A stretch of DNA of 64,000 bases from Pirellulales bacterium (GTDB lineage: Bacteria; Planctomycetota; Planctomycetia; Pirellulales; PALSA-1355): NCBI GenBank assembly GCA_963733035.1, contig CAVTBU010000007.1:128001-192000 (forward strand). Direction: 5' to 3'. The notes under the pieces are model-generated. The model worked only from the letters and a program-made list of their open reading frames with translations. It was not told where the DNA came from and made no database searches. Shown here one piece after another: positions 2,795-38,036 of the stretch; the first letter of the stretch is position 1, and each line of letters starts with the position of its first letter. A program made the translations under genes and the position numbers.

Positions 2795-5641
2795 ATGCAT
2801 TGTTTTGTCCGTCGCTCCGCCACTCTGGCCGCGATCGCGGGCTTGATGCTGGCGGCGGCCGCGGCACGGGCTGTCGACCCCGAATCGCCCGACGCGGCAT
2901 CCGTGGCCCGGCGGCTACTTGATGAGGGCAAATACGCTGAGGCCGAAGAGAAGTTCCGCGGCCTGCAAGCCGAACAACCGCTGATCGCTGCCGTTGGCAT
3001 CGCGCGTTGCCAACGTGCCACCGGGCATCGCGACGCGGCGGCCGAAACCCTGACGGCGACCTTCCAAAAGCACGCCGAAGCGGCCGTGCTCCCGGCGGAA
3101 ATGGCCGCGATCGCACTCGAGCGCGGCGATTACCCGGCAGCCACCGAGCTACTCGAAAAGGCCCTGCGGCTTGATGCCGATCAGGTGCAAGCCCATTGGC
3201 TGCGTGGCGAACTACGCGCCTCCACCGGTCAGCTCGACCAGGCCAATGCCGACTACGAGTGGCTCGTCGAATTCTATAACGCCCACGATGTCGACGACCC
3301 CGACACGCTACGCTGGATCGGCTTGGGTGCGGCCCAATTTGCCCGTTGGAACCGACTTAGTGATCAGTTCGGGTTTTTGGTTAACGAGTACTTTTCCGAA
3401 CTCGCAGGGCGGGTTCCCAGCTATTGGCCTGCCCATTACGAAGCAGGTCGCCTATTTGCCGAAAAGTACAACGACGCCGAGGCGGCCAAGGAATTCAAGG
3501 CCGCCCAGGTTATCAATGGTAATGCCGCCGAAGTGCATGCGGCCATCGGCGCTCAGTCGCTCGATCAATTTGAACTTGGTCCGGCGTTGGCCTCCTGCGA
3601 GCAGGCCCTGGCAATCAATCCCCAGCTGCTCGCGGCGCATCAGCTGCGGGCGGATATCCACTTTGCGAATTTCGAGCCTCGCGCGGCTGCCGGAGTGCTG
3701 AGCGATGCACTGAAATTGAACCCGGTTTCCGAAGATACCCTCGGGCGCTTGGCCGCCGCGTATCTTTCGACCGACGGCACGGCCAATCGCGGTTCGGAAA
3801 CACGATTCGGCAAGATCGTCGCCGAAGTCAACGACCGCAATCCACACGCGGGCCGTTTCTACCTGGCTCTGGCCGACGCGCTCGATCGTCTGCGCCGCTG
3901 GCCGGCGGCGGCCGAATATTATCGTGAAGCCATGACGCGCATGCCCCGGCTGATCGAGCCCGCGGGTCGGTTGGGCATGATGCTGATGCGTTTGGGCGAG
4001 GAAGCCGAGGCCAAGCAAGTGCTCGACGCCTCGTTCGCGGCCGATCCGTTCAACGTTCGTGTGAACAACACGCTCAAAGTGCTGGAAGTGCTCGACGGCT
4101 ACGAGGTGCACGAGACCGAGCACTTTCGCATCAAGTTCGATCCGGAGAAAGATCGGCTTACCGCCCAATATATGGGGCGCTGGCTTGAGCAGGTCTATCC
4201 ACAGCTCGTCGGCCAATTGGGCTATGCTCCCCCGGAGAAGTCGCTGTTCGAAGTCTTCAATCATGCCCGAAATACGGACGGTCACGGCTGGTTTAGCGCG
4301 CGGATGGTAGGCCTGCCGCGGATTCATCCGATTGGAGCCTGTGCCGGCAAGATCGTGGCGTTGAAGTCTCCCAGCGAAGGAGACCAGCGATTCAATTGGG
4401 CACGCGTGCTCAAGCACGAGTTCGTGCACGTGATCAATCTGCAGCAAACCGACTTCAACATACCGCATTGGTTTACCGAAGCGTTGGCCGTTTTGAACGA
4501 GGGCTACCCGCGACCGCAGGAGTGGAACCAGTTGCTCGTCGCGCGGGCGACGCAAGGCAAGTTGTTCAATCTTGATACCATCAACTTTGGTTTCATTCGG
4601 CCGCAGTCGAGCGATGACTGGACGCTGGCCTATTGCCAGGCCGAGTTGTACGCCGAGTACTTGCTCGAGCGATTTGGCGACGATGCCATCGCCAAAATGC
4701 TCGCCGCCTATGCCGATAACCTGAGCACGACCGAAGCCATCCAGCGAAGCTTCAGCGTCAATCAGCCGGATTTCGAACGCGGCTATCAAGAGTTCGTCAA
4801 GAAAATCCTCGCCGATCTACCACCGGCCGAGTCAGACGGCGAAAAGTCGCTGGCCGAAATACAAAAGGCCCTGGCCGCGAACCCAGAGGATCCGCAGTTG
4901 CTCGCCGAATCGGCCCAAGCGCAGCTCAACCGTCGCAACTATCCCCAGGCGCGCCGGCAGGCCGACGCCGCGCTCGGCCGCGATCCGAAGAACCAGCTCG
5001 CCCACTATGTTCGCGCCCGGCTGCATCTGCTCGTCGGCGAAAACCGCGAGGCATTCGACCGGCTGGAGAAAAATCTCGACCGCGATCATCCGCAGTCCAA
5101 CCTGCTGGCGCTGCTGGCCGGGCTCAAGCTGCGGGCCCAGGACTACGCCGCGGCAGCCGATCTGTACGAGTTGGGGGCTGCTCACGATCCGGGCGGCAGC
5201 AAGTGGCTCAAGTCGCTAGCGGCCGTGTATTTGAAGTCGGGCGACAACGCCAAGCTGCAGCCGGTGTTGGAAAAGCTGGCCGGAATGGACCCCGATGACT
5301 TGCCGCTACGGAAAAAACTGGCTCAACTGGCCATCGAGCGCCAGGATTGGCCGGCGGCCGAGCGCTGGACGCTGGAAGGCTTGCATATTCAGGTCCAGGA
5401 TGCCAACCTGCATGTTTGGCGCGCGATGGCCCTGGCCGCCCAGGACAAGGCCGCCGAGGCGGCCGACGAATATGCCGCCGCCGTCGAGCTTTCGCCCGAC
5501 GACCCAAAGTTGCCGATCGAGTACGCCAGGACGCTCGTCCGGGCCGGCCGAAAAGCCGAAGCCCGCGGCGTTCTCGAAGAGTTGCTCAAGCGTGCGGGCG
5601 ATGATCCCGAAGCGCGGAAATTGCTGAAGACGTTGCAGTAG
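2795..5641 (+). CDS. Secreted TPR-repeat protein with central zincin (peptidase MA-like) domain
   Basis: Signal peptide, many TPR-like helices, VLKHEFVH...PHWFTEALA (HExxH plus downstream E). Confidence 0.8.
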   Translation: MHCFVRRSATLAAIAGLMLAAAAARAVDPESPDAASVARRLLDEGKYAEAEEKFRGLQAEQPLIAAVGIARCQRATGHRDAAAETLTATFQKHAEAAVLPAEMAAIALERGDYPAATELLEKALRLDADQVQAHWLRGELRASTGQLDQANADYEWLVEFYNAHDVDDPDTLRWIGLGAAQFARWNRLSDQFGFLVNEYFSELAGRVPSYWPAHYEAGRLFAEKYNDAEAAKEFKAAQVINGNAAEVHAAIGAQSLDQFELGPALASCEQALAINPQLLAAHQLRADIHFANFEPRAAAGVLSDALKLNPVSEDTLGRLAAAYLSTDGTANRGSETRFGKIVAEVNDRNPHAGRFYLALADALDRLRRWPAAAEYYREAMTRMPRLIEPAGRLGMMLMRLGEEAEAKQVLDASFAADPFNVRVNNTLKVLEVLDGYEVHETEHFRIKFDPEKDRLTAQYMGRWLEQVYPQLVGQLGYAPPEKSLFEVFNHARNTDGHGWFSARMVGLPRIHPIGACAGKIVALKSPSEGDQRFNWARVLKHEFVHVINLQQTDFNIPHWFTEALAVLNEGYPRPQEWNQLLVARATQGKLFNLDTINFGFIRPQSSDDWTLAYCQAELYAEYLLERFGDDAIAKMLAAYADNLSTTEAIQRSFSVNQPDFERGYQEFVKKILADLPPAESDGEKSLAEIQKALAANPEDPQLLAESAQAQLNRRNYPQARRQADAALGRDPKNQLAHYVRARLHLLVGENREAFDRLEKNLDRDHPQSNLLALLAGLKLRAQDYAAAADLYELGAAHDPGGSKWLKSLAAVYLKSGDNAKLQPVLEKLAGMDPDDLPLRKKLAQLAIERQDWPAAERWTLEGLHIQVQDANLHVWRAMALAAQDKAAEAADEYAAAVELSPDDPKLPIEYARTLVRAGRKAEARGVLEELLKRAGDDPEARKLLKTLQ

Positions 5642-5980: not shown

Positions 5981-8271
5981 AAGGCGGCGCGATGGTGAGG
6001 CGGAACCTGGTGGCCCCCGTGTTGGTCGCTGTTTGCCTGGTGGCGTGGCTGCCGCGATCGCGCTCGGCGGTCGCTCAAGATAAGGCCGCTCCCGCGAAAC
6101 CAACGGCCGGCGTGGTCGAGGCGTCGACCGCTGCGACGCCGCGAATCGCCGCGCTTCGCCCCGGCTTCAAGGGTCACTTCAAGGTCGGCTATTGGACTCC
6201 TTTCGTGGTCGAGCTTGTCGGCGGCAGCGAGACCGTCGAGGGACGCGTGCGACTCACGGTTCCCGATAGCGACGGCGTGTTGAGCCGCGTGCACGCTCCG
6301 GCCTCCGGTCAATTGACCCTCGAGGCGGGTCAACGGAAGAGCGTGCGGCTGTACGCCAAGCTTGGGCAAATTACGGGCGACGTGACCGTCAGCCTGGTCA
6401 ACGAGTCAGGAGGTGTTCTGACCACCCGCCGCTTTCAGGCTGGCGACGAAGGCCCGCTATCTGGCGTCATGCCGTCGAGTTCAACCTTGCTGGTTTCCGT
6501 CGGGGCCAAATCCGAGCGAGCAGGTTCTTCAGCGGTTACTCGCGGCACTGAAATGATCCAACTTGCCGAGGTCGCCGCATTGCCAACCGAGTGGTGGGGG
6601 CTCGAAGGAGTCGACACGCTCCTGCTCAACACCAGTGATCCGCGCATCGGCGAGGAACTGTCTCGAGCAGAGGCTCAACTTGCGGCCCTGGAGCTTTGGG
6701 TGCGCATGGGAGGACGAATGGTGCTCAGTGTTGGCCGGCGCGGTGAGGAGCTGCTGGCGTCCGGATCGCCGCTCGCGCCGTTCGCTCCCGGCGAGTTCGA
6801 GTCGGTCGTGCCGCTGCGGCAGGGCACGATGCTCGAAACCTATGCCGAAAGTGCCGAACCACTGGCGGCGGGCGCAGCGCTCAAGCTTGACGTCACCAAA
6901 CTGCGGAACGTACGTGGGCGGGTCGATGCCTTTGCCGGCACGGGGCCCCGCGATTTGCCCCTCGTCGTTCGCGCGCCGCATGGCTTTGGGCAGATCGTCT
7001 TTGTGGCGTTTGAGTTGGATCAGCCCCCCTTGTCCGACTGGGTTGCCAAAGGTCAACTCCTGGAGAAGATCCTGGGCCGATTCGCTTCCAAGGCCAGCGA
7101 TGAAGACTCCAGCACGCTGGGCGCCGTCACTACTTTGGGATTTGTCGATCTGTCGGGGCAGTTGCGCGGTGCGCTCGATCAGTTTGACGAGGTGCGGCTC
7201 GTGCCTTTTTGGTTCGTGTCGATCCTGGTGACCTTGTATGTACTGTTCATTGGTCCGCTCGACTACTACCTGGTCAAGCATGTAATCAAACGGCCACGAC
7301 TCACATGGATTACCTTTGCGCTCACGGTCGTGGCGTTCTCCGCCGGAGCCGTGCTAATGGCCTTTGGGCTCAAGGGGCGCGAGTTGCGAGTCAATCAACT
7401 CGACGTGGTTGACTTCGACGCCGAAAGTGGTTTCGTGCGCGGCACCAGTTGGTCGAACCTGTTCAGTCCCGAAATCGAAACCTACGATCTTTCGCTCGCG
7501 CCCAGCGCCGGCCAGACATCCGCCGGGGACGCTCGAGGAGGAGTGCTTTTCTCCTGGTTTGGACTCACCGGAACGGGCTTTGGGGGCGTCGACGCGGTGG
7601 GAAGTGCAACCGGCGGCATGGGGGCAGCTTCCGGCAGCCTGCCGCTCTTTAGCGTCGCATACGACTACTCGGCTCAACTCGATCGCATCGAGCGCGTGCC
7701 GATTGCGCAATGGGCGAGCAAAGCGTTCGTGGGCCGCTGGTGGCAACTGGGCAGCGGCGGCGTCGAAGCCAAGCTTGCCGACGACGGCCGTTTGGTTGGC
7801 ACCGTGACCAATCACCTCGACGTGCCGCTGACCCATGCCGTGCTGGTTTACGACCGCTGGGCCTACGTGATTCACGATTTCGCGCCGGGCCGACAGATCG
7901 ACTTGGAGTTCGATATCGATCCGCAAACCGTCGACACCTATCTGCGGCACGTCACGGCCGTAGGCGATCGGAAAGTCGCGGCCGCGTATAATCAGGCCTC
8001 GTTCGACGTGGCACGGATCGTTGAGGTCATGACCGGTCAGGAACTCGTCGCCGGCGGAAAAGCCTATACCGGCTTGGCGAATCAGTACCAGGGTTTCGTC
8101 GAATTGAGTGATCTGGTGCGTCTGGGTCGAGCGGTCCTCATCGGGCGCGTTGCCAAAGCGGGCTCGACGCTCGAGCGGGACGGCAAACCGCTGGCCGGCG
8201 CCGACGTAGAAACCAACGCCTGGACCTTCCACCGTTATGTGTTTCCCGTGGCGGAGCAGGGCACTCCCTAG
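5977..8271 (+). CDS. Large hypothetical membrane protein, probably ABC-transporter associated
   Basis: ATGA overlap with the MazG stop; signal peptide, central two-TM hairpin (ILVTLYVLFIGPLDYY...WITF); next to an ABC ATPase. Confidence 0.75.
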   Translation: MKGGAMVRRNLVAPVLVAVCLVAWLPRSRSAVAQDKAAPAKPTAGVVEASTAATPRIAALRPGFKGHFKVGYWTPFVVELVGGSETVEGRVRLTVPDSDGVLSRVHAPASGQLTLEAGQRKSVRLYAKLGQITGDVTVSLVNESGGVLTTRRFQAGDEGPLSGVMPSSSTLLVSVGAKSERAGSSAVTRGTEMIQLAEVAALPTEWWGLEGVDTLLLNTSDPRIGEELSRAEAQLAALELWVRMGGRMVLSVGRRGEELLASGSPLAPFAPGEFESVVPLRQGTMLETYAESAEPLAAGAALKLDVTKLRNVRGRVDAFAGTGPRDLPLVVRAPHGFGQIVFVAFELDQPPLSDWVAKGQLLEKILGRFASKASDEDSSTLGAVTTLGFVDLSGQLRGALDQFDEVRLVPFWFVSILVTLYVLFIGPLDYYLVKHVIKRPRLTWITFALTVVAFSAGAVLMAFGLKGRELRVNQLDVVDFDAESGFVRGTSWSNLFSPEIETYDLSLAPSAGQTSAGDARGGVLFSWFGLTGTGFGGVDAVGSATGGMGAASGSLPLFSVAYDYSAQLDRIERVPIAQWASKAFVGRWWQLGSGGVEAKLADDGRLVGTVTNHLDVPLTHAVLVYDRWAYVIHDFAPGRQIDLEFDIDPQTVDTYLRHVTAVGDRKVAAAYNQASFDVARIVEVMTGQELVAGGKAYTGLANQYQGFVELSDLVRLGRAVLIGRVAKAGSTLERDGKPLAGADVETNAWTFHRYVFPVAEQGTP

Positions 8272-30635: not shown

Positions 30636-30986
30636 TCAGTAGTCGCGGCGACCACCGCCGCCGCCGCCACGACCTCCACGGCCGCCGCCATAGCCACCGC
30701 CGCCACCCCCGTAGCCGCCGCCACCGCCCGTCCGGGGAGCCCGCTCACGGGCTTCGTTCACCGTAATGGCTCGGCCGTCGATTTCCGTGCCATTTAACGC
30801 GTCGATCGCCCGCTGGCAAGCGTCGTCGGATTCCATCTCCACGAACCCAAAGCCGCGCGAACGGCCCGTTTCGCGGTCGGAGATCACTTCGGCCGATTGC
30901 ACGGTGCCGTGGGCGCTGAACAGCGCCTCGAGTGAAGCCGACGTGGTCGACCAGGGCAGGTTTCCGACGTAAATCTTCTTCGCCAT
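30636..30986 (-). CDS. RRM RNA-binding protein with Gly-rich tail
   Basis: KIYVGNL (RNP2), RGFGFVEM (RNP1), GGGG/RGG tail. Confidence 0.95.
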
Positions 30987-31208
30987 CACATAATGTCCTT
31001 TGCGCTCGTTTGGGGTGCGGTTTCTACCCGTACAAAGACTAATGACGCGTGCATCCGGCACCCCGCTCTTGTCGCCGCGTCAAGTCGGCCGGCTCCAGGG
31101 CTCAGGCAAGTTAAATGTACCTTTGCCGCTTAGCGCAATGCAAGCACTTATTGCGCTGGAAAAAGGGCCTGCCAAGCCCGACTGGCCGGGCCGGTTTGTT
31201 CCCCCTTT

Positions 31209-32504
31209 TTAAGCCCGAAAGTCGGCCCGCACACGCCGATAAAGCGCGCGGGTCTGCTCGGCCATGGCCGACGCGGTGAAACGTTCGAAAATCGCCTCCT
31301 GTCCGCTTTTCCCCAAATCACGGGCCAATTCGGGTTCAACCAGCAGCCGTTTGAGGGCGGCGGCCAGCGCCTGGGGGTCGTTGGGCGTATGCAGCAGGCC
31401 GCCCCCCGACTGCTCGATCGTTTCGGGAAAGGCCCCGTGATCGGGCAACACCACCGGCACCGCGTTGGCCAACGCCTCCAGCACGCTGATGCCCTTGCTC
31501 TCGCGATAGACCGTGGGCAAGCTCATCACGTCGAGTCCCTGCAAAAAGGCGATCTTCTCGGCGCGCGACACCTCGCCCACATACTCGAAGGCCCCGGGGC
31601 GGTTCCAGGCGTCGGTCCGCCGCTGGATCGTCTCCAGGTAGGGTCGGTCGAGCTTGCCCAGGTAGCCGGCCGCGCGAACCCGGAACGGCGGCACTTCCGA
31701 GTCAGCCTGCAGCAGTTCGGCCGCGGCCACCAGGTTGTGCAGCCCTTTGTCCGGACAAATCCGCGCCAAGAACCCGATCGTCCGTGGCTCGCCGGCCGCG
31801 GCGGGCCGCGTGCCGTGGCCGGCCAGATTCAGCCCGTGCGGAATCACGTGCACCCGCTCGCGCGGCACACTCAGGTAGTCGGCCATGTAGTCGGCGTAAT
31901 AAGTATTGAGCGCGACCAGGCCGTCGAGCTGGGCGGCCCGCTCACGCAGCACCTGCCGCGCGCGATCGTAGTGTGGCGGCGGCACCTTTTCCAGAAAGAT
32001 GTCCTCGCCCGAGAGCGTCGTCAGCACGGGAATGCCCAGCTTGCGAATCTCGTGGGCCACGCCGATCAGCATGGCATTCGACAGGTGTACCACGTCGGGC
32101 CGGGCTTCCTGCTCGATCCACCGTACCAGCTTCCGCACTTCCTTCCGCTGCCGGCCATGTTCGCCTTCGAGCATCGAGACCGTCAGGTCTCCCAACCGCT
32201 CCGGCTCAATGCTCGGTCCGCCCCGCGTCAGCCACGCGATCATCCGCGGGTTGTCGAGCAGGTGATCCAGAAACCAGGGCGTATGCCGAAAGATGGACGA
32301 GTGCTGCTGCAGGAAGACGTTGACGCCGCCAAAGAAGAGGTGCGAATCGCTGACGCTATCTTCATCGGTGCGGAGCGGCGTGTAGGTGGGCACGAGCAGC
32401 ACATCCTCACCCAGCGCCGAGAGCGCGGCCGCCAGCGTGTTGTCGTGCAGGCAACTGCCGCAATACATGCCGGCCGCCCCGGCCGCCAGATAGAGAATCT
32501 TCAT
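31209..32504 (-). CDS. Glycosyltransferase family 4
   Basis: MYCGSCLHDN N-terminus, ARICPDKG, ESKGISVLEALA. Confidence 0.9.
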   Translation of the reverse strand: MKILYLAAGAAGMYCGSCLHDNTLAAALSALGEDVLLVPTYTPLRTDEDSVSDSHLFFGGVNVFLQQHSSIFRHTPWFLDHLLDNPRMIAWLTRGGPSIEPERLGDLTVSMLEGEHGRQRKEVRKLVRWIEQEARPDVVHLSNAMLIGVAHEIRKLGIPVLTTLSGEDIFLEKVPPPHYDRARQVLRERAAQLDGLVALNTYYADYMADYLSVPRERVHVIPHGLNLAGHGTRPAAAGEPRTIGFLARICPDKGLHNLVAAAELLQADSEVPPFRVRAAGYLGKLDRPYLETIQRRTDAWNRPGAFEYVGEVSRAEKIAFLQGLDVMSLPTVYRESKGISVLEALANAVPVVLPDHGAFPETIEQSGGGLLHTPNDPQALAAALKRLLVEPELARDLGKSGQEAIFERFTASAMAEQTRALYRRVRADFRA

Positions 32505-32757
32505 AAGCCCCCGCCACGCTCAACGCCAAACGCGAATGCCCATCTATTTCGTCGCTGCCAATTGTAGAGGTCTTTGAGCGGATGGGAAATCGTCGACGGA
32601 AAACGATGTAGGGCAGATCGCAGGAGGCGGACGCGTCACGCAAGCAGCGTCACTGGCACGAACAGCGTCCGCTAAGACTACTAGACAAGACGTTACTTAA
32701 AGGTGGGGATCAGCTTTGCCTTGGCCTCGCTCATGGCAGATCATTTTCTTCAACGTG

Positions 32758-33895
32758 ATGGAGCTTGGCAAAATCCATGATGTACAGTTTGCAGGCCCAT
32801 CGAGTGCTACAATCGACCTGTCGAACAGGCGGCTAATGTCGAGATTTTCTTTTGCCTGGTGGCCTGCAATGAATGGCTTCTTGTACGTGCGCGTCGCGGG
32901 AAATCTCCGTCGACCGACTGCCATCTCTAATCCGGGCCTACCAGCAAAAGAACGCGAAGAGCGAATTCGACGCCTTCGGGTCCGGGCTCCAGGAGTTCAG
33001 CTCGCATGGACTGCTGTTTCGACGAATTGAGTCCTTGGCAGCAATCGAACTGGACCAGGTAGTCGTTGGACGCGACTATGAAACGCCCGGCGACTCGGGC
33101 CCCCACCAGGACTTTATCGGCGAAATGGGGCCGCAGACCAAACAGATGTTCTGCAGTTGGCAGACGCTTGTTGATCTGGAATCGCCGGTGGAAAGCAAGT
33201 TCGAACTGGCCGTGCACGGCGGGTGGCTTGTCCACGCCTCCTGGAATGAAGGTCGATGGTTTGCTGGATTTCATATCGGTAGTGCGTCCAAAGGCTTCCA
33301 GGAAATTGAGTACCGACATTTCTTGGTGGAACGCATCCTGGTCGCTATGGGCCTCGACGGCGGGATCAAAACCGAGTTCAATCAGGGCCACTTTACCATT
33401 TCTTCCCAGGAGCCTTGGCAGTTGCGCTTTATCCACGCCGGGCTCGGTGGACAAGATGCCCTCGGCATATGGTTTGGTGGCTTTTCCGACTATGCCCACG
33501 TGCTACGGGCCGCGCGTGGGGCGTTGCAGCATGTTTCGACCAAGATCTACGAGTGCAAAATTGCCGCCAGGTGCGATGCCTCGCAGTTTGAGTCGATCCG
33601 TGGACCGCTGAACGCGCTCGCTCATGATTGGCGCGTCGAACCCCTTGGCGAGTATACACCACGGGCGGCCGCCATTCTGGCGGGCGAAAGCGCCGACTTT
33701 GGCGAAATCTCCGTCATTCCAGCCGCTGAGTGGATCGAAAAGCGAAAAGGTGCGAAGGAGATTTTTCAACTGAACGTCCGCCCGGCCGGCCGCGGTTGCG
33801 TGCTCGAAGTGATTAGCGACTGTGCCGATGTGGACCGGCTGATGGATCGTGCCCAGATTCCTGCGGATCTTGGCTTTACGCTGGTCGCCAAATGA
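32758..33895 (+). CDS. Hypothetical protein in accessory island, apparent frameshift near 32900
   Basis: MELGKIHDVQF...YVRVAG appears to join EISVDRLPSLIRAY... of the 340-aa frame at a GGGAAA run; start uncertain. Confidence 0.55.
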
Positions 33896-34253
33896 TCGAC
33901 AGATTCACAAACCTCCATGCGGAGTGTTGGATGCTTGAGGACACTGACAGGATTGACATGATCGCTCGAACGCCACGTGGCGATCTCGAACTGATTATCA
34001 CTGACTGTGGGATCACAACGAACAATCGTGCGCGATTTGACCTATTGGTTTCCAAGCTGCGGACGTACGTCGGCTATATCGTCAGCGACGAGTTCACAAG
34101 AGAAAACGGGAATAGCGCCCTGGCGACATCGCCATTCGTGTCGTTGCGGCTTCTCCTCCAACAGCACAAATGAAGCGAATCACGCAGGTAAACCCGTCTG
34201 ATCGCCCGGACCTTGCAATTCCGGTGCGGTACGAAGTATTTCCTCGGCCCTGA
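33892..34253 (+). CDS. DUF6572-like small protein, apparent frameshift near 34110
   Basis: ATGA overlap with the upstream stop; DRIDMI...LELIITD.G...LLVSKLRTYVGYIVSDEF, continuing in another frame as PGDIAIRVVAASPPTAQM...YEVFPRP*. Confidence 0.55.
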
Positions 34254-34362
34254 TCCAATTGCGGGTGCCATATGGTAGGCCGCGTTTCAATGGGCCTTCC
34301 GATCTTCTGCCCGCTGAAAGATCTTTGCTATTCGGCTCTGGTCACGGCGTGCATCTCGACGA

Positions 34363-34627
34363 AACGCGTTTGAAATCTCCCGCTTGAAATCGGGCCAGCA
34401 CCTGCGGCATACTCACCCGCGGTCGGATGGCCTGCGACGTGTGGACGAGCAACAAGCCTGGGACCTTGGTTGTCTTGTCTTTGGAACCTGCCCATCCCCG
34501 CCGACACGTTTCGGCGGCACGAGGATTACGGGGTTCGCTTGCGTCCACATGTTCGCCGCTTGGCCGCGCAGATACGCGGCGCCGGGGATCCACGGCGCTG
34601 CAACTTGCGCGGCAGGTCTGGCTGTCT
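34363..34627 (+). repeat. Direct repeat copy 1 (~265 bp): promoter plus candidate structured RNA
   Basis: Near-identical to 36159-36419; four substitutions over the first ~200 bp, small indels in the 3' hairpin. Confidence 0.95.
34384..34413 (+). promoter_or_regulatory. Sigma70-like promoter in repeat copy 1
   Basis: TTGAAA-18 bp-CATACT; both hexamers are identical in the two copies while the spacer varies. Confidence 0.55.
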
Positions 34628-34629
34628 AT

Positions 34630-35166
34630 TTGGCCTCCCGTGCTCGCGGAATTCGCGGGCCACGCAACCGTCCCAATAAGCCCCGTACCGCTACGCCGAT
34701 CGGCCGTAAGAAGCCGCGGTTTCCACCGCCAGTTGATACGATCCGGCTTACAAATCGACGAGGTCGCACGACACCCCATCCAAATCACGTGGTGTCGGTT
34801 GTAACAGAAGAGGAAGCGGCGCGGTTCCTTCATTCACTGCCCGACACCGCGGTGATATTCTGGGGTCAAAAAATCGGAAAACATCGCGCGGACATAATCA
34901 CGTTTAACCTTCGCACAAAGGTCGTAACTTTTTGGGACGTCAAGTATCGCAGCAGTCCTGTTCGAATTCAGGCATCCAAGACATTTGCGAAGGGCAAGCA
35001 ATCGCTGGAAAATGTCATTGTGCAGGCATACGATGCCGTCCTACTGTCCAGTCTAACGCCAGCCGACAAGGCAAGTGCCACAAAAGCATTGGTCTTGCGT
35101 CGATTTCAAGTTCGTACGCTCGGCGCCGGTGCTGCCAAGAACTCGAGTCTAGGAGGGTCCCCATGA
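34630..35166 (+). CDS. Putative PD-(D/E)xK nuclease toxin-like protein (orphan, no delivery domain)
   Basis: E...ADIITFN...FWDVKYRS fits the restriction-endonuclease fold motif; start uncertain (TTG 34630, ATG 34549 or TTG 34384, all in frame). Confidence 0.55.
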   Translation: MASRARGIRGPRNRPNKPRTATPIGRKKPRFPPPVDTIRLTNRRGRTTPHPNHVVSVVTEEEAARFLHSLPDTAVIFWGQKIGKHRADIITFNLRTKVVTFWDVKYRSSPVRIQASKTFAKGKQSLENVIVQAYDAVLLSSLTPADKASATKALVLRRFQVRTLGAGAAKNSSLGGSP

Positions 35167-35900
35167 CCTTTGATCCCAAGCGATTACGCAAGGGTTTACA
35201 CGAGTATCTGATTGCCCTGGCCGAGAATGCGAGCCTTGACGAGGCTCGACGTGGGGAATGCATCGGTAGTGTCGGAAACCACCTGTTGCACATCGCCTTG
35301 CAATGCATTTTGGTCGGCGAGTTTGCCATTGCTAAAACTGTTCTGGCGAAAGTGCGTCGGTTTTTGCAGGAAGCAATCGAAAAAGGGGAGCACGATACGC
35401 CCGGATTGCGGTTCGTACTCGACAATTATTCGCTGACGTCTTGGTTGGTCGAAGGGCGTGATGACAAATCGAGTCTCCGCGAGTGCGTCGCACTCCGAGA
35501 GAAATGGTTTCAAGGAAAGGGCAATCTGAACCGAACCGAAATGCAACTCTCGCTGCTGCCGTATTTGCAATCGGGGCAACTCGACACGCTCATGGCGCGC
35601 TACGAAAGTGTCGGACTCACGAAACCCAAGAGCCTGCGACACATCAAGGGGGAGGGTACGATGTGCTACGTGCTCGCACGCCATCGGCTGGGACTTGATT
35701 ACACCGACGACGAAATCTCGCAGGCACTTCAGACCTTTCTGAAACGCTGCATGGAAGATTGGCTGTTCGGTCACTATTGCACCGTCGCCCGCTGGATGAA
35801 AATCGCGCATTGGAAACCCGGCGACGATCCGATCGCCACCGTGCTGCGCTGCTACGACTATCTGCCGGGCCGCAAGCCGCCGAAGTATCCCCCTGGGTAG
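35163..35900 (+). CDS. Putative immunity protein (helical, 245 aa)
   Basis: ATGA overlap with the nuclease-like ORF stop, GGAGG upstream; ends ARWMKIAHW...TVLRCYDYLP; function inferred from context. Confidence 0.6.
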   Translation: MTFDPKRLRKGLHEYLIALAENASLDEARRGECIGSVGNHLLHIALQCILVGEFAIAKTVLAKVRRFLQEAIEKGEHDTPGLRFVLDNYSLTSWLVEGRDDKSSLRECVALREKWFQGKGNLNRTEMQLSLLPYLQSGQLDTLMARYESVGLTKPKSLRHIKGEGTMCYVLARHRLGLDYTDDEISQALQTFLKRCMEDWLFGHYCTVARWMKIAHWKPGDDPIATVLRCYDYLPGRKPPKYPPG

Positions 35901-36038
35901 ATTCGATCGTCTGGCCCGTCGAATCGCAAAGCGACCTCCTCAAGTGAGAACAAGGAAGCTTGTCACAGGCCGCCAACCAAACCAAATCTTCAGGCGGTCG
36001 GCGATGAGCGTTGTCGACGACGTCTGCCAATCATACCA

Positions 36039-36099
36039 ACCCGAAGCGCGAGCAAGGAAGGACACAGCATACGGAAAAGCCCTCGCTTGCGCTTCGGGT
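36039..36099. repeat. REP/REPIN-like inverted repeat pair
   Basis: ACCCGAAGCGCGAGCAAGG ... CCTCGCTTGCGCTTCGGGT (17/19 match), resembling planctomycete intergenic REP palindromes. Confidence 0.7.
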
Positions 36100-36158
36100 G
36101 AGTATGGCCGTGGACGCTTTCACCGCGTCTCTGTCGCCGTCGCGATTTCTCCCACAAG

Positions 36159-36419
36159 AACGCGTTTGAAATCTCCGGCTTGAAATCGGGCCAGCACTTG
36201 CCGCATACTCACCCGCGGTCGGATGGCCTGCGATGTGTGGACGAGCAACAAGCCTGGGACCTTGGTTGTCTTGTCTTTGGAACCTGCCCATCCCCGCCGA
36301 CACGTTTCGGCGGCACGAGGATTACGGGGTTCGCTTGCGTCCACATGTTCGCCGCTTGCCGCAATACGACGGCGCCGGGGATCCACGGCGCTGCTCTTGC
36401 GCGGCAGGTCTGGCTGTCT
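36159..36419 (+). repeat. Direct repeat copy 2 (~261 bp): promoter plus candidate structured RNA
   Basis: Near-identical to 34363-34627; TTGAAA 36180-36185, CATACT 36204-36209. Confidence 0.95.
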
Positions 36420-36623
36420 TTGCCGCACGAAGGTTTTTTAGCCTGGCTTGGCGGTGGCGGAAGCCGCCGTCACTTGACGTACTGGTAAAACGAGTGCTTC
36501 GTGCTGCATGCCGCGTGTCGCGCCGCTCGGTCGATGGCCGAGGAGTGACCAACCATTAACCACTTTCAAAGTCCAATCCCGGCTCAACCGAGCACGACAC
36601 GCTTCTGTTTTTAAAAAGCGTCC

Positions 36624-36669
36624 AACCAAACGCCGCGCGCACCCTTGCGCGCTGGCGTTTGGTTTTTTT
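36624..36669 (+). terminator. Intrinsic terminator
   Basis: AACCAAACGCC-GCGCGCA CCCT TGCGCGC-T-GGCGTTTGGTT followed by a T run. Confidence 0.75.
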
Positions 36670-36973
36670 GTTTTCAATTCGTCCTTTGTGCCCTTGGTGG
36701 TTTTTTATCAACATCCTGTTTTTAATTGCTTACAGTTGCCCCTTCGCAGCCTTGGGTTCATTCGGAAGAATCGCGATTCGCGTCCACAGGACCAGGGGCC
36801 GACGCCCGCTGGCCATTCGGGGTCGCCGCTGTGTGGCTTTATTCGTACCTCCTCAGGCCCAGCCCTGACCGACTGGGGACACGCTACTCCCGCTGCGAGA
36901 TTCAGGCACGGCGTATACAATGGTCACCACCTCGATGCGAATCAAAAGAAGCCCTCGGACGTCACGCGCCTTG

Positions 36974-38036
36974 ATGCTCCCCACGCTGCGAATTGGACCA
37001 ATTGAACTCGACTTTCCCGTCGTGCAGGCGGCCCTGTCGGGCTACAGCGATTGGGCGATGCGCGTGATCGCGCGGCGGCTGGGGGCGCCGTATACGCTTT
37101 GCGAGGTGATGCTCGATCAGTTCATCAACGAAGTGACCAAGGGGCGCAAGGCGCGGCGCTATCCTGCGCACCAGCGACGAAGAACATCCGGTCGGCGGGC
37201 AGTTGATGGGGGCCAACCCCGAGGATTTTGCTCCGGCCGCTCGGCACCTGGTCGAGGCCGGCTTCGACGTCGTCGATATCAACTTCGGCTGCCCGGTCAA
37301 AAAGGTGCTCGGCCGACAACGCGGAGGGTTCCTGCTGGGGCAAGTCGACACGGCGCTGGAAATCGTCTCGCGGGTGCGCGAGGCCGTGCCCGACCGCGTG
37401 CCGGTGACCGTCAAGATGCGCCGCGGGATCGACGATTCGGCCGAGAGCCGCGACAAGTTCTTCGAGATCTTCGACGGCGCCTTCGAGCGGGGCGTGGCGG
37501 CCATCACCGTGCACGGCCGTACCGTCAAGCAGCGCTACGTCGGGCCGAGCCGGTGGCAGTTTCTACGCGAAGTGAAACAGCATGCCGGCCAGCGCGCGGT
37601 GTTGGGGAGCGGCGACTTGTTCACGCCGCAAGCATGCCTCGACATGATGCGCGAGACGGGCGTCGACGGCGTAACGGCCGCCCGCGGCGCGATCGGCAAT
37701 CCCTGGATCTTCGCCCAGGCCCGAGCGCTCGCCGCCGGCCAGCCGCTTCCCGCGCCGCCGACGGTCCGCGAGCAGCGCGACGTGATCGCCGAGCACTATC
37801 GACTGAGCGAGGAACTCTACGGCCCCGAAACGAGCGGGCGGCAGATGCGGAAGTTCGGCATCAAGTACTCACAGCTCCATCCCCAGGGCAAACAGGTCCG
37901 CGACGCGTTCGTGAAAGTCGCCCGGCCCGGCGAGTGGCTGACGGTATTGGAACGGTGGTACGCCGCAGACGCTCCCGGCGTGCATCCCTCGGCCGAGGAA
38001 GAGCAATTGATGAATTGCAGCGAGTCGGCGGCGTAG
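36974..38036 (+). CDS. tRNA-dihydrouridine synthase (Dus family), apparent frameshift near 37163
   Basis: AALSGYSD in the first frame; GGQLMG...DINFGCPVKKV...TVKMR...TVHGR...ARGAIGNPW in the second. Confidence 0.9.

What the first reader, a model, noticed from the sequence alone, without database searches (positions are those of the whole stretch)
34363..36419. Nuclease-toxin/immunity-like cassette bracketed by two copies of a promoter plus structured-RNA unit
Seen: two ~265-bp near-identical direct repeats enclose a ~1.5-kb segment holding a PD-(D/E)xK-like ORF (ADII...WDVK) coupled by ATGA overlap to a 245-aa helical ORF. The nuclease-like ORF has no secretion or Rhs domain, and its frame has a TTG 2 nt after the repeat ends. 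No transposase or integrase is nearby. Known: adjacent nuclease plus coupled downstream gene is the layout of polymorphic toxin-immunity modules, but their shared repeats are normally coding. Inference: a non-coding repeat may act as a portable expression leader and/or recombination handle that captures, expresses or excises toxin-immunity cassettes. This could be an undescribed cassette system, or an RNA-regulated toxin-antitoxin or defence module.
Basis: partly seen in the sequence, partly recalled or inferred. Interest (0 to 1): 0.8.

Follow-up and report, generated by a model that had tools for sequence, protein, structure and literature searches.

The report
Orphan toxin–immunity pair beside RNA-gene repeats
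A cut-down bacterial weapon gene (only its nuclease tip) and its matching antidote gene sit between a broken and an intact copy of an unknown, many-copy RNA gene; the gene pair is an ordinary kind of thing, and the RNA gene family is the part that remains unexplained.

Summary
Window 34363-34627 and 36159-36419 are about 95.5% identical direct repeats around ORF1 (34630-35166) and ORF2 (35163-35900).

ORF1 is the C-terminal toxin domain of a polymorphic toxin. It has a restriction-endonuclease-like fold and a conserved D...WDxK motif. The gene is cut off at about codon 286 of a roughly 480-aa toxin. Relatives of this domain end RHS-repeat, CdiA-like and other long proteins. ORF2 is its helical immunity partner: it follows the domain in 5 of 10 related loci, occurs in tandem arrays, and is predicted to bind it.

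The same toxin/immunity family fills the same glycosyltransferase-Dus gap in two sister genomes. Those loci have no repeat.

The repeat is not a cassette device. It is the 5' half of a roughly 455-nt promoter-to-terminator unit that looks like a structured RNA gene. This genome has 15 intact copies in three subfamilies. Two sister genomes have 3 each. No other genome searched has any, and Rfam has no match. None of the other 14 copies carries a cassette.

Copy A is a truncated copy fused to the truncated toxin gene, and it probably now supplies the promoter for the immunity gene. The toxin/immunity reading is supported. The portable capture/expression handle reading is not.

The parts
31209..32504 (-). 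Glycosyltransferase gene, left border of the variable gap
   Evidence: Pfam Glycos_transf_1 E 7.5e-26. It is 75-77% identical to the protein in sister genomes G001-G003. DNA homology to them ends at 32504-32516.
32873..34173 (+). Two coupled ORFs of unknown function: 340 aa (32873-33895) and 93 aa (33892-34173), overlapping by ATGA. They form the first part of the low-GC island.
   Evidence: ORF list. The 93-aa ORF is just under the Pfam cut-off for DUF6572 (26.3 vs 27 bits). A paralogous pair lies at G000:C6:845426-846326. GC is 52-58% here against 61-70% outside.
34262..34362 (+). Flank upstream of copy A, homologous to the flank upstream of another F1 copy (C5:197972-198090)
   Evidence: blastn gives 88% over 371 nt when the repeat is included; alignment.
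34363..34627 (+). Repeat copy A: the truncated 5' half of an F1 RNA-gene unit. Promoter-like TTGAAA-N18-CATACT lies at 34384-34413. The inferred transcript start is near 34420.
   Evidence: It lacks the 3' domain and terminator that the 7 full copies have. Its body is 99.6% identical to the C4 copy but only 95.5% to copy B.
34630..35166 (+). ORF1: 5'-truncated polymorphic-toxin gene. It keeps the linker plus a roughly 130-aa C-terminal toxin domain with a restriction-endonuclease-like fold.
   Evidence: Homology to the 477-aa toxin P0064 starts at its residue 286, which aligns with the first codon after the repeat. 186 cluster representatives match, at the C-terminal end of their proteins. Conserved D47, W61-D62-x-K64-x-R66. 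AF2 pLDDT 89.4 with alpha-beta-beta-beta-alpha-alpha-beta topology. Best structural matches are PD-(D/E)xK nucleases, Z up to 7.6.
35163..35900 (+). ORF2: cognate immunity gene. 245 aa, all-alpha, TPR-like. AGGAGG lies 6 nt before its ATG.
   Evidence: 60 homologues of about 245 aa. It lies directly downstream of an ORF1-like domain in 5 of 10 related loci, and in tandem arrays of up to 5. AF2 pLDDT 94. Predicted complex with the ORF1 domain: ipSAE 0.92 vs best control 0.44.
35901..36158 (+). Spacer, unique in the genome. It holds a 26-nt-arm inverted repeat at 36032-36057 / 36081-36106.
36159..36419 (+). Repeat copy B: the part of the intact F1 unit that is duplicated as copy A. It includes 19 nt upstream of the unit that only A and B share.
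36178..36669 (+). Intact F1 RNA-gene unit. Promoter at 36180-36209. The inferred RNA is about 454 nt. The conserved 3' domain is at 36492-36609. A hairpin plus T7 terminator is at 36626-36669.
   Evidence: Promoter scan. Fold of 461 nt: z -4.95, with a terminal hairpin followed by U7. Covariance model R1 hits C7:164492-164609. Pair counts. The seven full copies are 97-99% identical.
36670..36838 (+). 3' extension shared with some other F1 copies: to 36745 with three copies, to 36838 with the C8 copy
36974..38036 (+). Dihydrouridine synthase gene, right border of the variable gap. It is frameshifted near 37162.
   Evidence: Pfam Dus E 1.5e-54. tblastn with the sister genome's Dus: residues 1-63 align in one frame (36974-37162) and residues 64-353 in another (37164-38033). 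DNA homology to the sisters starts at 36974.

Best explanation
The bracketed segment is an orphan polymorphic-toxin module. [quoted passage not shown] The N-terminal roughly 285 residues are gone. ORF2 is the cognate immunity protein that binds and neutralises that domain.

The module lies in a gap between a glycosyltransferase gene and a Dus gene. In this genus that gap is a hot spot for this same toxin/immunity family.

The two 265-nt repeats are not part of the module. They are the 5' half (promoter plus about the first 210 transcribed nt) of a roughly 455-nt promoter-to-terminator unit that behaves like a structured non-coding RNA gene. That unit has multiplied in this genome. Copy B is an intact unit between the immunity gene and Dus. 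Copy A is a copy broken at its nt 246 and fused to toxin codon ~286, either by a deletion or by a template-switch/recombination event.

Inferred consequences:
- The strong RNA-gene promoter of copy A now transcribes the toxin remnant and the immunity gene.
- The cell therefore keeps a protective orphan immunity against competitors that deliver this toxin.
- The toxin remnant has no delivery part and is probably a relic.
- The two direct repeats could delete the module by homologous recombination, leaving one intact RNA gene.
For: SHOWN: ORF1 is a polymorphic-toxin C-terminal domain.
- ORF1's domain matches 186 cluster representatives (E<=1e-3; 97 at <=1e-10). In long proteins the match is the last 110-160 residues, e.g. 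7491-7648 of 7649, 3505-3617 of 3628, 2110-2234 of 2235.
- Of 11 such proteins scanned, 2 carry RHS repeats, 5 carry TPS and/or filamentous-haemagglutinin repeats (one of these also has a pretoxin HINT domain), 1 carries LysM, and 3 have no Pfam family.

SHOWN: ORF2 is the paired immunity gene.
- In 5 of 10 genome loci with an ORF2 relative, an ORF1-like domain ends directly upstream. Tandem ORF2 paralogues reach five in a row.
- The predicted ORF1-domain/ORF2 complex scores 0.92 against a best control of 0.44. That mark was reached by 116 of 157 solved complexes and 2 of 215 mismatched pairs. Runs agree in at least 88% of contacts and partner pLDDT is 91.

SHOWN: fold and truncation.
- The domain alignment has invariant D47 and near-invariant W61, D62, K64, R66. 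The model has pLDDT 89.4. Its structural neighbours are nearly all PD-(D/E)xK nucleases: HamA Z 7.6, Hjc 6.5, Cas4-like 6.0, FokI 5.4.
- Homology to 449-483-aa toxins starts at the first codon after the repeat. P0064 residue 286 'LASRARG...' equals ORF1 residue 1.

SHOWN: the locus is a hot spot and the module is an orphan.
- In G002 the glycosyltransferase and Dus genes are 195 nt apart.
- In G003 they enclose 2 ORF2-like genes.
- In G001 they enclose a 483-codon toxin frame plus 5 ORF2-like genes.
- Here they are 4.47 kb apart.
- This genome has no RHS repeat and no second copy of ORF1 or ORF2.

SHOWN: nature of the repeat.
- There are 8 long copies in the genome, 7 of which continue to a hairpin+T7 terminator.
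- There are 15 intact units in three subfamilies sharing a promoter box and a 3' domain.
- The 3' domain has 17 pairs, 96% of cells paired, and 4 pairs with changes on both sides. 0 of 500 shuffles reach the covariation score. Slid controls are far lower.
- Length differences that are not multiples of three among near-identical copies argue against a coding function.

INFERRED: that promoter A drives ORF1-ORF2, that ORF2 protects the cell, and the order of the rearrangements.
Against: - No transcript data exist: no RNA run holds the stretch.
- No read or contig bridges either junction, so the arrangement rests on this one assembly plus synteny.
- Structural matches for the toxin domain are middling. 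Foldseek gives no E<=1e-3 and Z is at most 7.6, a range the tool says can arise from a common arrangement.
- No Pfam, NCBIfam or PADLOC model hits either protein.
- Copies A and B alone share 19 nt upstream of the unit. That fits a local duplication-with-insertion better than two independent arrivals.
- Copy A's body is nearer to the C4 and C5a copies than to B, which fits an independent arrival or later gene conversion.
- These two points pull in opposite directions, so the history is not resolved.
- ORF1 has intact catalytic-motif residues, so 'relic' is not shown.
Confidence: 0.75

Rival explanations
1. One reading: the non-coding repeat is a portable expression leader and recombination handle of an undescribed cassette system that captures, expresses or excises toxin-immunity cassettes.
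For: - The promoter in copy A points into the cassette.
- The duplicated stretch includes 19 nt of flank that only A and B share, as a duplication-with-insertion or Campbell-type integration would leave.
- Direct repeats of 265 nt could excise the cassette.
- Copies of the unit are mosaics of each other, so they do recombine.
Against: - 0 of 14 other copies in this genome has a cassette or any shared neighbour gene.
- Sister genomes carry the same toxin/immunity family at the same spot without the unit.
- The junction truncates the toxin in mid-protein.
- No recombinase appears among the 20 ORFs scanned around it.
- The promoter box is a common one in this genome: 57 sites at up to 3 mismatches, including sites upstream of a tRNA and of protein genes.
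Confidence: 0.06
2. The pair now works inside the cell as a toxin-antitoxin or abortive-defence module. The truncated nuclease is translated and held in check by ORF2, with the RNA-derived leader regulating it.
For: - The catalytic-motif residues are intact in ORF1.
- The ATGA overlap suggests translational coupling.
- The two proteins are predicted to bind.
- A promoter lies directly upstream, with no terminator-like site on the + strand between 34413 and ORF1.
Against: - In relatives the domain is the tip of secreted or delivered proteins, not a stand-alone toxin.
- No defence-system model hits either protein.
- ORF1 has no evident ribosome-binding site or ATG/GTG start at the junction. Its TTG is an internal Leu codon of the ancestral gene.
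Confidence: 0.1
3. The repeated unit is a non-autonomous mobile DNA element (MITE-like) with no RNA function. Its promoter and hairpins would be incidental.
For: - The eight F1 copies are 95-100% identical and have unrelated neighbours.
- Copy number is 15 here against 3 in each of two sister genomes.
- Depth over the unit exceeds depth over its flanks in a soil metagenome.
Against: - No terminal inverted repeats or target duplications were seen at the ends.
- The boundaries coincide with a promoter and a terminator, and they vary from copy to copy.
- The three diverged subfamilies and the sister-genome units keep the same promoter, the same 3' domain and compensatory pair changes.
Confidence: 0.15
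4. The duplication is an assembly artefact.
For: No read or contig laid here spans either junction. The unit is a multi-copy repeat.
Against: - The two copies differ at about 12 positions, including indels, and each has unique flanks.
- The contig is 751,709 bases long and seven further copies are resolved in long contigs.
- Sister genomes place the same toxin/immunity family between the same two genes, so the order glycosyltransferase - module - Dus is independently supported.
Confidence: 0.03

Closest known systems
Orphan CdiA-CT/Rhs-CT toxin-immunity modules. Sources: Poole et al. 2011, PMC3150448, and Koskiniemi et al. 2014, PMC3967940 (search listing and abstract start only); Zhang et al. 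2012, PMC3482391 (passages read).
   Same: - A toxin C-terminal domain without its delivery part, followed on the same strand by its immunity gene.
- Relatives of the domain end RHS and CdiA-like proteins.
- Immunity paralogues form arrays.
   Different: - Classical orphans lie downstream of a full-length rhs or cdiA gene and keep a stretch of its conserved core for recombination (recalled).
- Here the genome has no RHS repeat and no second copy of the domain.
- The upstream neighbour is half of a non-coding RNA gene.
Tox-REase toxin domains, REase-1 to REase-10 (Zhang et al. 2012, PMC3482391; passages read)
   Same: - Restriction-endonuclease fold.
- A D-[D/E/Q]xK-type signature.
- Delivery by RHS, T5SS and other routes.
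- All-alpha or alpha+beta immunity partners.
   Different: - No Pfam model, Tox-REase models included, hits ORF1 or any of 41 family members.
- Its own signature is G..G.D ... WDxKxR ...
- I did not compare it with the paper's own alignments.
Orphan immunity islands and immunity-gene arrays. Examples: V. cholerae arrays formed by sequential displacement (PMC5361080); Bacteroidales orphan immunity and acquired interbacterial defence (PMC10470768, PMC12247911). Search listings and abstract starts only.
   Same: - A chromosomal hot spot where strains of one genus carry different numbers of immunity genes of one family, with or without the toxin: 0, 2, 5+toxin, and 1+toxin remnant.
- A mosaic allele exists: P0003 has a C-terminal half identical to ORF2 and a diverged N-terminal half.
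   Different: No secretion-system cluster or recombinase adjoins the hot spot in the 27 kb examined.
Large structured bacterial non-coding RNAs of unknown function, such as OLE, GOLLD, ROOL, HEARO and raiA (recalled), and multicopy sRNAs such as LhrC (PMC4132741, listing only)
   Same: - Several hundred nt long, with its own promoter and intrinsic terminator.
- Conserved domains joined by variable regions.
- Several copies per genome.
   Different: - No Rfam family matches even at E<=10.
- Found in only one genus of those searched.
- No conserved neighbouring protein gene.
- Function and expression are untested.

Membership tests
Polymorphic toxin system (toxin C-terminal domain + immunity) | The toxin domain sits at the extreme C-terminus of long delivery proteins with varied N-terminal parts | tested here: met
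   the match is the last 110-160 residues of proteins of 1219-7649 aa; of 11 scanned, 2 have RHS_repeat, 5 have TPS/Fil_haemagg, 1 has PT-HINT, 1 has LysM; in L040 and L037 the domain follows a motif I recall as the end of the Rhs core.
Polymorphic toxin system (toxin C-terminal domain + immunity) | The immunity gene lies immediately downstream on the same strand, and immunity paralogues form arrays | tested here: met
   5 of 10 loci have an ORF1-like domain directly upstream of an ORF2-like gene. Arrays of 5 (L033/G001) and 2 (L032/G003, L038). The window has an ATGA overlap.
Polymorphic toxin system (toxin C-terminal domain + immunity) | The immunity protein binds its toxin domain | tested here: inconclusive
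   Prediction only. ipSAE 0.92 vs best control 0.44. The mark was reached by 116 of 157 solved complexes and 2 of 215 mismatched pairs. At least 88% of contacts are shared between runs and partner pLDDT is 91. No measurement exists.
Polymorphic toxin system (toxin C-terminal domain + immunity) | The domain is toxic and the partner neutralises it | not testable with these tools
   Needs expression with and without ORF2.
Classical orphan Rhs/CdiA module | Lacks the N-terminal delivery region but is homologous to full-length toxins from the break onward | tested here: met
   P0064 residues 286-467 align with ORF1 from its first codon. There is no homology upstream in the repeat.
Classical orphan Rhs/CdiA module | Lies downstream of a full-length rhs/cdiA gene of the same genome and shares core sequence with it (feature recalled) | tested here: not met
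   No RHS_repeat match in the genome, which is 92% complete. ORF1 and ORF2 have no second copy. The upstream neighbours are a repeat copy and two unrelated ORFs.
PD-(D/E)xK (restriction-endonuclease-like) nuclease fold | An alpha-beta-beta-beta-alpha-beta core carrying D ... (D/E)xK on the strands | tested here: met
   Model elements: H10-27, E32-37, E48-52, E58-66, H83-98, H103-114, E118-126. D47 is invariant; W61, D62, K64 are at least 90% conserved.
PD-(D/E)xK (restriction-endonuclease-like) nuclease fold | Clear structural similarity to solved members | tested here: inconclusive
   Foldseek best E is 0.029. In VIA-align the top rows are mostly PD-(D/E)xK nucleases, but Z is at most 7.6, in the range the tool calls middling.
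Pfam Tox-REase families | Match to a curated Tox-REase model | tested here: not met
   No family at E<=1 for ORF1. 0 of 41 family members hit any Tox-REase model.
Gene-cassette or mobile-element system (integron-like, MITE-like, composite transposon) | A recombinase or transposase at the locus | tested here: not met
   None among the 20 ORFs scanned between 18.8 and 45.6 kb.
Gene-cassette or mobile-element system (integron-like, MITE-like, composite transposon) | The repeat recurs next to different cassettes | tested here: not met
   0 of 14 other copies. Exact searches of metagenome contigs for the junction and for the last 24 nt of the repeat found nothing, which says little either way.
Gene-cassette or mobile-element system (integron-like, MITE-like, composite transposon) | Terminal inverted repeats and target-site duplications | tested here: not met
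   None at the ends of the aligned copies. The ends vary between copies.
Any described RNA family (Rfam 15) | Covariance-model match | tested here: not met
   0 matches at gathering score over the window. 0 at E<=10 over 34200-36700. Only chance-level rows on six units of this genome and the sister genomes. No tRNA or tmRNA.
Structured non-coding RNA gene (generic) | Own promoter and terminator, no conserved reading frame, base pairs kept by compensatory change | tested here: met
   Promoter-like sites. Terminal hairpin+U7 and z -4.95. Indels not in threes. 17 pairs, 96% paired, 4 pairs with double changes, 0 of 500 shuffles reaching the covariation score. Expression was not tested.

The most novel reading that the evidence does not exclude
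The promoter-to-terminator units are a new class of large structured non-coding RNA confined to one planctomycete genus. They are about 455 nt here and about 560-740 nt in the sister genomes. They share a conserved 5' motif and a covarying 3' domain around a variable middle. In this genome they multiplied from about 3 to 15 genes by DNA-level copy-and-paste with ragged ends. One broken copy has been co-opted as the promoter and leader of an orphan immunity gene. On this reading the RNA gene is itself a spreading, possibly selfish unit that reshapes neighbouring loci.
Probability: 0.3. Interest if true: 0.6.

Novelty: new member of a known kind. Interest (0 to 1): 0.4.

Why it matters
- **Two unfiled protein families.** The nuclease-type toxin domain has 186 cluster representatives, spread over RHS, CdiA-like and other carriers. 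Its helical immunity partner has at least 60 homologues. Neither is in Pfam, NCBIfam or PADLOC. Together they are a ready pair for structural and biochemical work on toxin neutralisation.
- **A clean natural series.** The glycosyltransferase-Dus hot spot runs from empty, to immunity only, to toxin plus five immunities, to toxin remnant plus one immunity. That series shows how immunity islands are built and decay in Planctomycetota, a phylum where interbacterial antagonism is little studied.
- **An unexplained RNA family.** The multi-copy RNA-like unit is the least explained element. If transcribed, it is a lineage-specific large RNA with unusual copy-number dynamics.
- **For the scan.** The case shows that a 'bracketing repeat' can be a by-product of a proliferating gene rather than a device.

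Tried and rejected
**RNA family identity**
- Rfam at gathering score and at E<=10 found nothing.
- ARAGORN found no tRNA or tmRNA.
- A coding reading of the repeat was rejected. The open frames in it are not kept between subfamilies, and near-identical copies differ by 4-nt and 1-nt indels.

**Distribution of the unit**
- BLAST of the full unit in 40 relatives gave no match. The covariance model then found it in two sister genomes.
- Model R1 over the order matched 1 of 95 genera.
- Model R2 over the class matched 0 of 150 other genomes.
- Viral contigs hold no copy of the RNA 3' motif and no ORF2 relative.
- A conserved protein partner next to the RNA units was not found. One pair of units shares an upstream multi-copy gene pair only.

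**Reads and metagenomes**
- No listed holder is on record as RNA. The best DNA holder has 0.24 of the words.
- Contigs of four runs cover parts of the stretch, but none bridges 34627/34628 or 36158/36159.

**Protein family searches**
- PADLOC and NCBIfam gave no hit for the four island ORFs or for a full-length toxin.
- Profile searches of solved-structure sequences gave nothing below E 0.05.
- The Atlas lead DUF6707 for ORF2 (score 0.92, recognition below the tool's mark) was not borne out. Pfam hits 0 of 23 family members.
- Atlas gave nothing usable for the 340-aa ORF.
- Foldseek for ORF2 gave only weak TPR matches, E>=0.02.

**Literature and earlier notes**
- Three searches turned up no description of a multicopy large RNA in Planctomycetes. 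This covers only the held library and those terms.
- Earlier scan notes had nothing for this genome.


Full report
**1.

The repeat finder reports 34363-34562 vs 36159-36358 at 98%, plus two exact blocks that carry the repeat to 34627 and 36419. Aligned end to end, the two copies are 95.5% identical over 266 columns. The differences sit in one patch and include 4-nt and 1-nt indels.

Between the copies lie 1531 nt found nowhere else in the genome. That segment holds ORF1, whose frame is open to 35166 and contains 'HRADIITF ... FWDVKYR'. It also holds ORF2 (35163-35900, 245 aa), which overlaps ORF1 by ATGA. A TTG at 34630 follows the repeat by two bases.

**2. What the repeat is**

The window is G000:C7:128001-192000. 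The 265-nt query finds 8 long copies in the genome (242-265 nt, 95-100% identity) and 5 short partial matches (40-69 nt, 78-85% identity).

When the copies are aligned with their flanks, all except copy A run on past ...GGCTGTCT into shared sequence. From copy B the shared sequence reaches window 36669 in three copies, about 36745 in two more, and 36838 in one. The repeat is therefore the 5' half of a unit of about 490 nt. Copy A is a truncated copy.

The unit begins with a promoter-like TTGAAA-N18-CATACT at 34384-34413 and 36180-36209. The scan found 5 promoter-like sites in the region against 1.8 +/- 1.4 in shuffles. The unit ends in a long hairpin followed by seven T at 36626-36669. The inferred RNA is about 454 nt.

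Two further subfamilies of four copies each have the same layout:
- The same promoter box.
- A similar 5' motif, GTCYGGTGGCC.
- A conserved 3' block.

A covariance model of the 3' block finds exactly 15 units in this genome.

In that block an outer helix changes by compensation between subfamilies, while an inner helix is invariant. On the 17-sequence alignment:
- 17 pairs are 95.9% paired.
- 4 pairs show changes on both sides.
- 0 of 500 shuffles reach the covariation score of 0.223.
- Versions with the partner slid by 1-3 columns score at most 0.124.
- That alignment was fitted to the model, which favours the structure.

The F1 RNA folds better than its shuffles (z -4.95). The F3 and F2 representatives do so less clearly (z -2.2 and -2.0).

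Near-identical F1 copies differ by indels that are not multiples of three, and no frame is shared between subfamilies. The unit is therefore not coding.

Other properties of the unit:
- Rfam has no match at any threshold tried.
- ARAGORN finds nothing.
- The neighbours of the 15 units share no protein gene.
- The promoter box itself is common in this genome. It has 57 sites at up to 3 mismatches, including sites upstream of a tRNA-Arg and of protein genes. It is an ordinary promoter type here, not a property of the repeat.

**3. Distribution of the unit**

- BLAST found no copy in 40 relatives.
- The covariance model found 3 units each in two of three same-genus genomes (G002, G003; about 40 bits). 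It found none in the third (G001) or in the 29 other genomes of the family.
- A sample of the order gave 1 of 95 genera.
- A second model gave 0 of 150 other genomes of the class.
- In the sister genomes the units start with the same promoter type 457-608 nt upstream of the 3' domain, so the RNA there would be about 560-740 nt.
- Copy number is thus 3 in two sisters and 15 here.

**4. What the cassette is**

*Family searches*
- Neither ORF matches Pfam, NCBIfam or PADLOC.
- A full scan of 1.84 billion representatives finds 186 relatives of ORF1 (97 at E<=1e-10).
- In long proteins the match is the last 110-160 residues, for example 7491-7648 of 7649 and 2110-2234 of 2235.
- Of 11 relatives scanned, two have RHS repeats, five have two-partner-secretion and/or haemagglutinin repeats, one of these also has a pretoxin HINT domain, one has LysM, and three have no family.

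*Fold of the ORF1 domain*
- The domain alignment has invariant D47 and near-invariant W61, D62, K64, R66, S75, F78.
- The model has pLDDT 89.4 and an alpha-beta-beta-beta-alpha-alpha-beta order.
- Foldseek gives no significant match.
- A search not dependent on Foldseek lists almost only PD-(D/E)xK nucleases at the top: HamA Z 7.6, Hjc 6.5, a Cas4-family protein 6.0, FokI 5.4, CinB 5.1. These are scores the tool itself calls middling.
- Motif, topology and neighbours together make a restriction-endonuclease-type toxin the best reading.
- Ten such Tox-REase families are described in Zhang et al. 2012 (passages read). Pfam's models hit none of 41 family members.

*ORF2*
- It has 60 homologues of about 245 aa.
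- It is all-helical and TPR-like (pLDDT 94) with no specific structural match.
- In 10 genome loci with an ORF2 relative, an ORF1-like domain ends directly upstream in 5.
- In two of those 5, the domain is the tip of a long frame with a motif I recall as the Rhs core end.
- ORF2 paralogues stand in tandem, up to five in a row.
- The predicted complex of the ORF1 domain with ORF2 scores 0.92 against a best control of 0.44. That mark was reached by 116 of 157 solved complexes and 2 of 215 mismatched pairs.
- The runs agree in at least 88% of contacts and partner pLDDT is 91. This supports binding but does not show it.
- Most of ORF2's predicted contact residues lie in its N-terminal half. In the closest homologue, P0003, that half has diverged while its C-terminal ~105 residues are identical to ORF2.

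**5. The toxin gene is cut**

Full-length relatives of 449-483 aa have three parts:
- An N-terminal domain with no Pfam family.
- A conserved 'LNPAFxGTG' stretch.
- A basic linker beginning 'LASRARG', followed by the toxin domain.

ORF1 aligns with P0064 from that protein's residue 286, 'LASRARG...'. This is the very first codon after the repeat, and nothing upstream aligns.

About 285 N-terminal residues are missing. This genome has no RHS repeat and no second copy of either ORF. ORF1 is therefore an orphan remnant.

**6. The locus is a genus-level hot spot**

The glycosyltransferase gene (31209-32504) and the Dus gene (from 36974) are conserved neighbours in the three sister genomes. Their separation and contents differ:
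- G002: 195 nt apart.
- G003: 2.1 kb apart, holding two ORF2-like genes.
- G001: 6.35 kb apart, holding a 483-codon toxin frame ending in the ORF1-like domain, plus five ORF2-like genes.
- This genome: 4.47 kb apart.

None of the sister loci holds a copy of the RNA unit. The model's hits in G002 and G003 lie on other contigs.

The interval here has low GC, 52-58% against 61-70% outside. It also has low third-position GC. Besides the module, it holds two further coupled ORFs of unknown function (32873-34173).

**7. How the bracket arose (inference)**

An intact F1 unit (copy B, with a 170-nt 3' extension shared with the C8 copy) lies between the immunity gene and Dus. A second, broken unit (copy A) is fused at its nt 246 to toxin codon ~286.

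Two routes fit:
- Two units flanked a complete toxin-immunity operon, and a deletion then removed the 3' half of copy A together with the toxin's 5' part.
- A single duplication-with-insertion occurred, by template switching or by integration of a circle through the shared 265 nt.

The evidence points both ways:
- For the second route: A and B alone share 19 nt upstream of the unit.
- For the first route: A's body is 99.6% identical to the C4 copy and 99% to C5a, but only 95.5% to B. In addition, about 100 nt upstream of A resemble the flank of C5a.

The copies are mosaics of each other in the variable patch. Gene conversion has therefore blurred the record, and I cannot decide between the routes.

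Either way, the junction is a break inside a gene, not a capture site.

**8. How it most likely works now (inference)**

- Promoter A has no terminator-like site on the + strand before ORF1.
- ORF2 has AGGAGG 6 nt before its ATG.
- The immunity gene is therefore probably expressed from the RNA-gene promoter. It would protect the cell against neighbours that deliver this toxin.
- The toxin remnant keeps its motif residues but has no delivery part and no evident start signal.
- Whether the remnant is translated, and whether the pair then acts as an addiction module, is open.

**9. What could not be tested**

- No RNA data set holds the stretch.
- Short metagenome contigs cover parts of the stretch but bridge neither junction.
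- Two exact-pattern scans of metagenome contigs found nothing.
- Misassembly is unlikely. The copies differ, their flanks are unique, the contig is 751,709 bases long, and synteny places the module where it is. But reads did not exclude it.

**10. Verdict**

- Its toxin/immunity reading is supported and sharpened: this is an orphan remnant in a hot spot.
- Its proposal of a cassette-capturing non-coding handle is not supported.
- The repeated RNA-like unit is the unexplained element and deserves a look in its own right.

Noticed in passing
window 36974-38036: The Dus gene is split between two reading frames near 37162. Residues 1-63 align in one frame and residues 64-353 in another, when compared with the sister genome's intact 360-aa protein. 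This is either a real frameshift or a one-base assembly error.
   Followed up: partly
genome-wide, e.g. G000:C5:1448856/1448559, C6:874900/874605, C6:110968/110672, C4:57737/57444: The promoter box TTGAAATCGGGCCAGCAC, with an unusually conserved spacer, occurs at 57 sites at up to 3 mismatches. It often comes in pairs about 295-300 nt apart. The first of a pair is followed by a conserved leader (TAsGGTCGGsAGATTCTGsAC) and a short basic Cys-rich ORF (MFHxGQNxKAA...KRRKEKCAQLS...). One box lies 190 nt upstream of a tRNA-Arg.
   Followed up: partly
window 32873-34173 and G000:C6:845426-846326: Two coupled ORFs (340 aa and 93 aa, ATGA overlap) lie in the low-GC island and have a diverged paralogous pair on contig C6 (21% and 57% identity). 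The small one is just under the Pfam cut-off for DUF6572. Just upstream of the C6 pair is a fragment that resembles, from memory, the C-terminus of an IS200-like/REP-associated transposase.
   Followed up: partly
window 36032-36106: A 26-nt-arm inverted repeat (85% complementary, 23-nt loop) lies in the unique spacer between ORF2 and copy B. It has no T-run after it. It could be the operon's end or a leftover of the rearrangement.
   Followed up: no
P0003, compared with window 35163-35900: A 245-aa homologue from another data set has its C-terminal ~105 residues identical to ORF2 and a strongly diverged N-terminal half. It looks like a mosaic immunity allele in a very close relative. Its genomic context could not be fetched.
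   Followed up: no
P0062, P0063, P0064, P0070 and L087:2290-3741: The full-length toxins of 449-483 aa share an N-terminal domain of about 285 aa (…KVQxSxNxQLxRQYxxL…FLDDLFNYPL…, then LNPAFxGTG) with no Pfam or NCBIfam match. It may be a delivery or secretion domain of unknown type in Planctomycetota.
   Followed up: partly
G000:C5:2649484 and C5:1082902 (F3 units): Two F3 RNA units share the same upstream gene pair (356-aa and 256-aa ORFs, 83-98% identical). This is probably a multi-copy mobile element next to them.
   Followed up: no
window 30636-31061: A small RRM-domain RNA-binding protein gene (Pfam RRM_1, E 2e-24) lies 1.5 kb left of the island.
   Followed up: no
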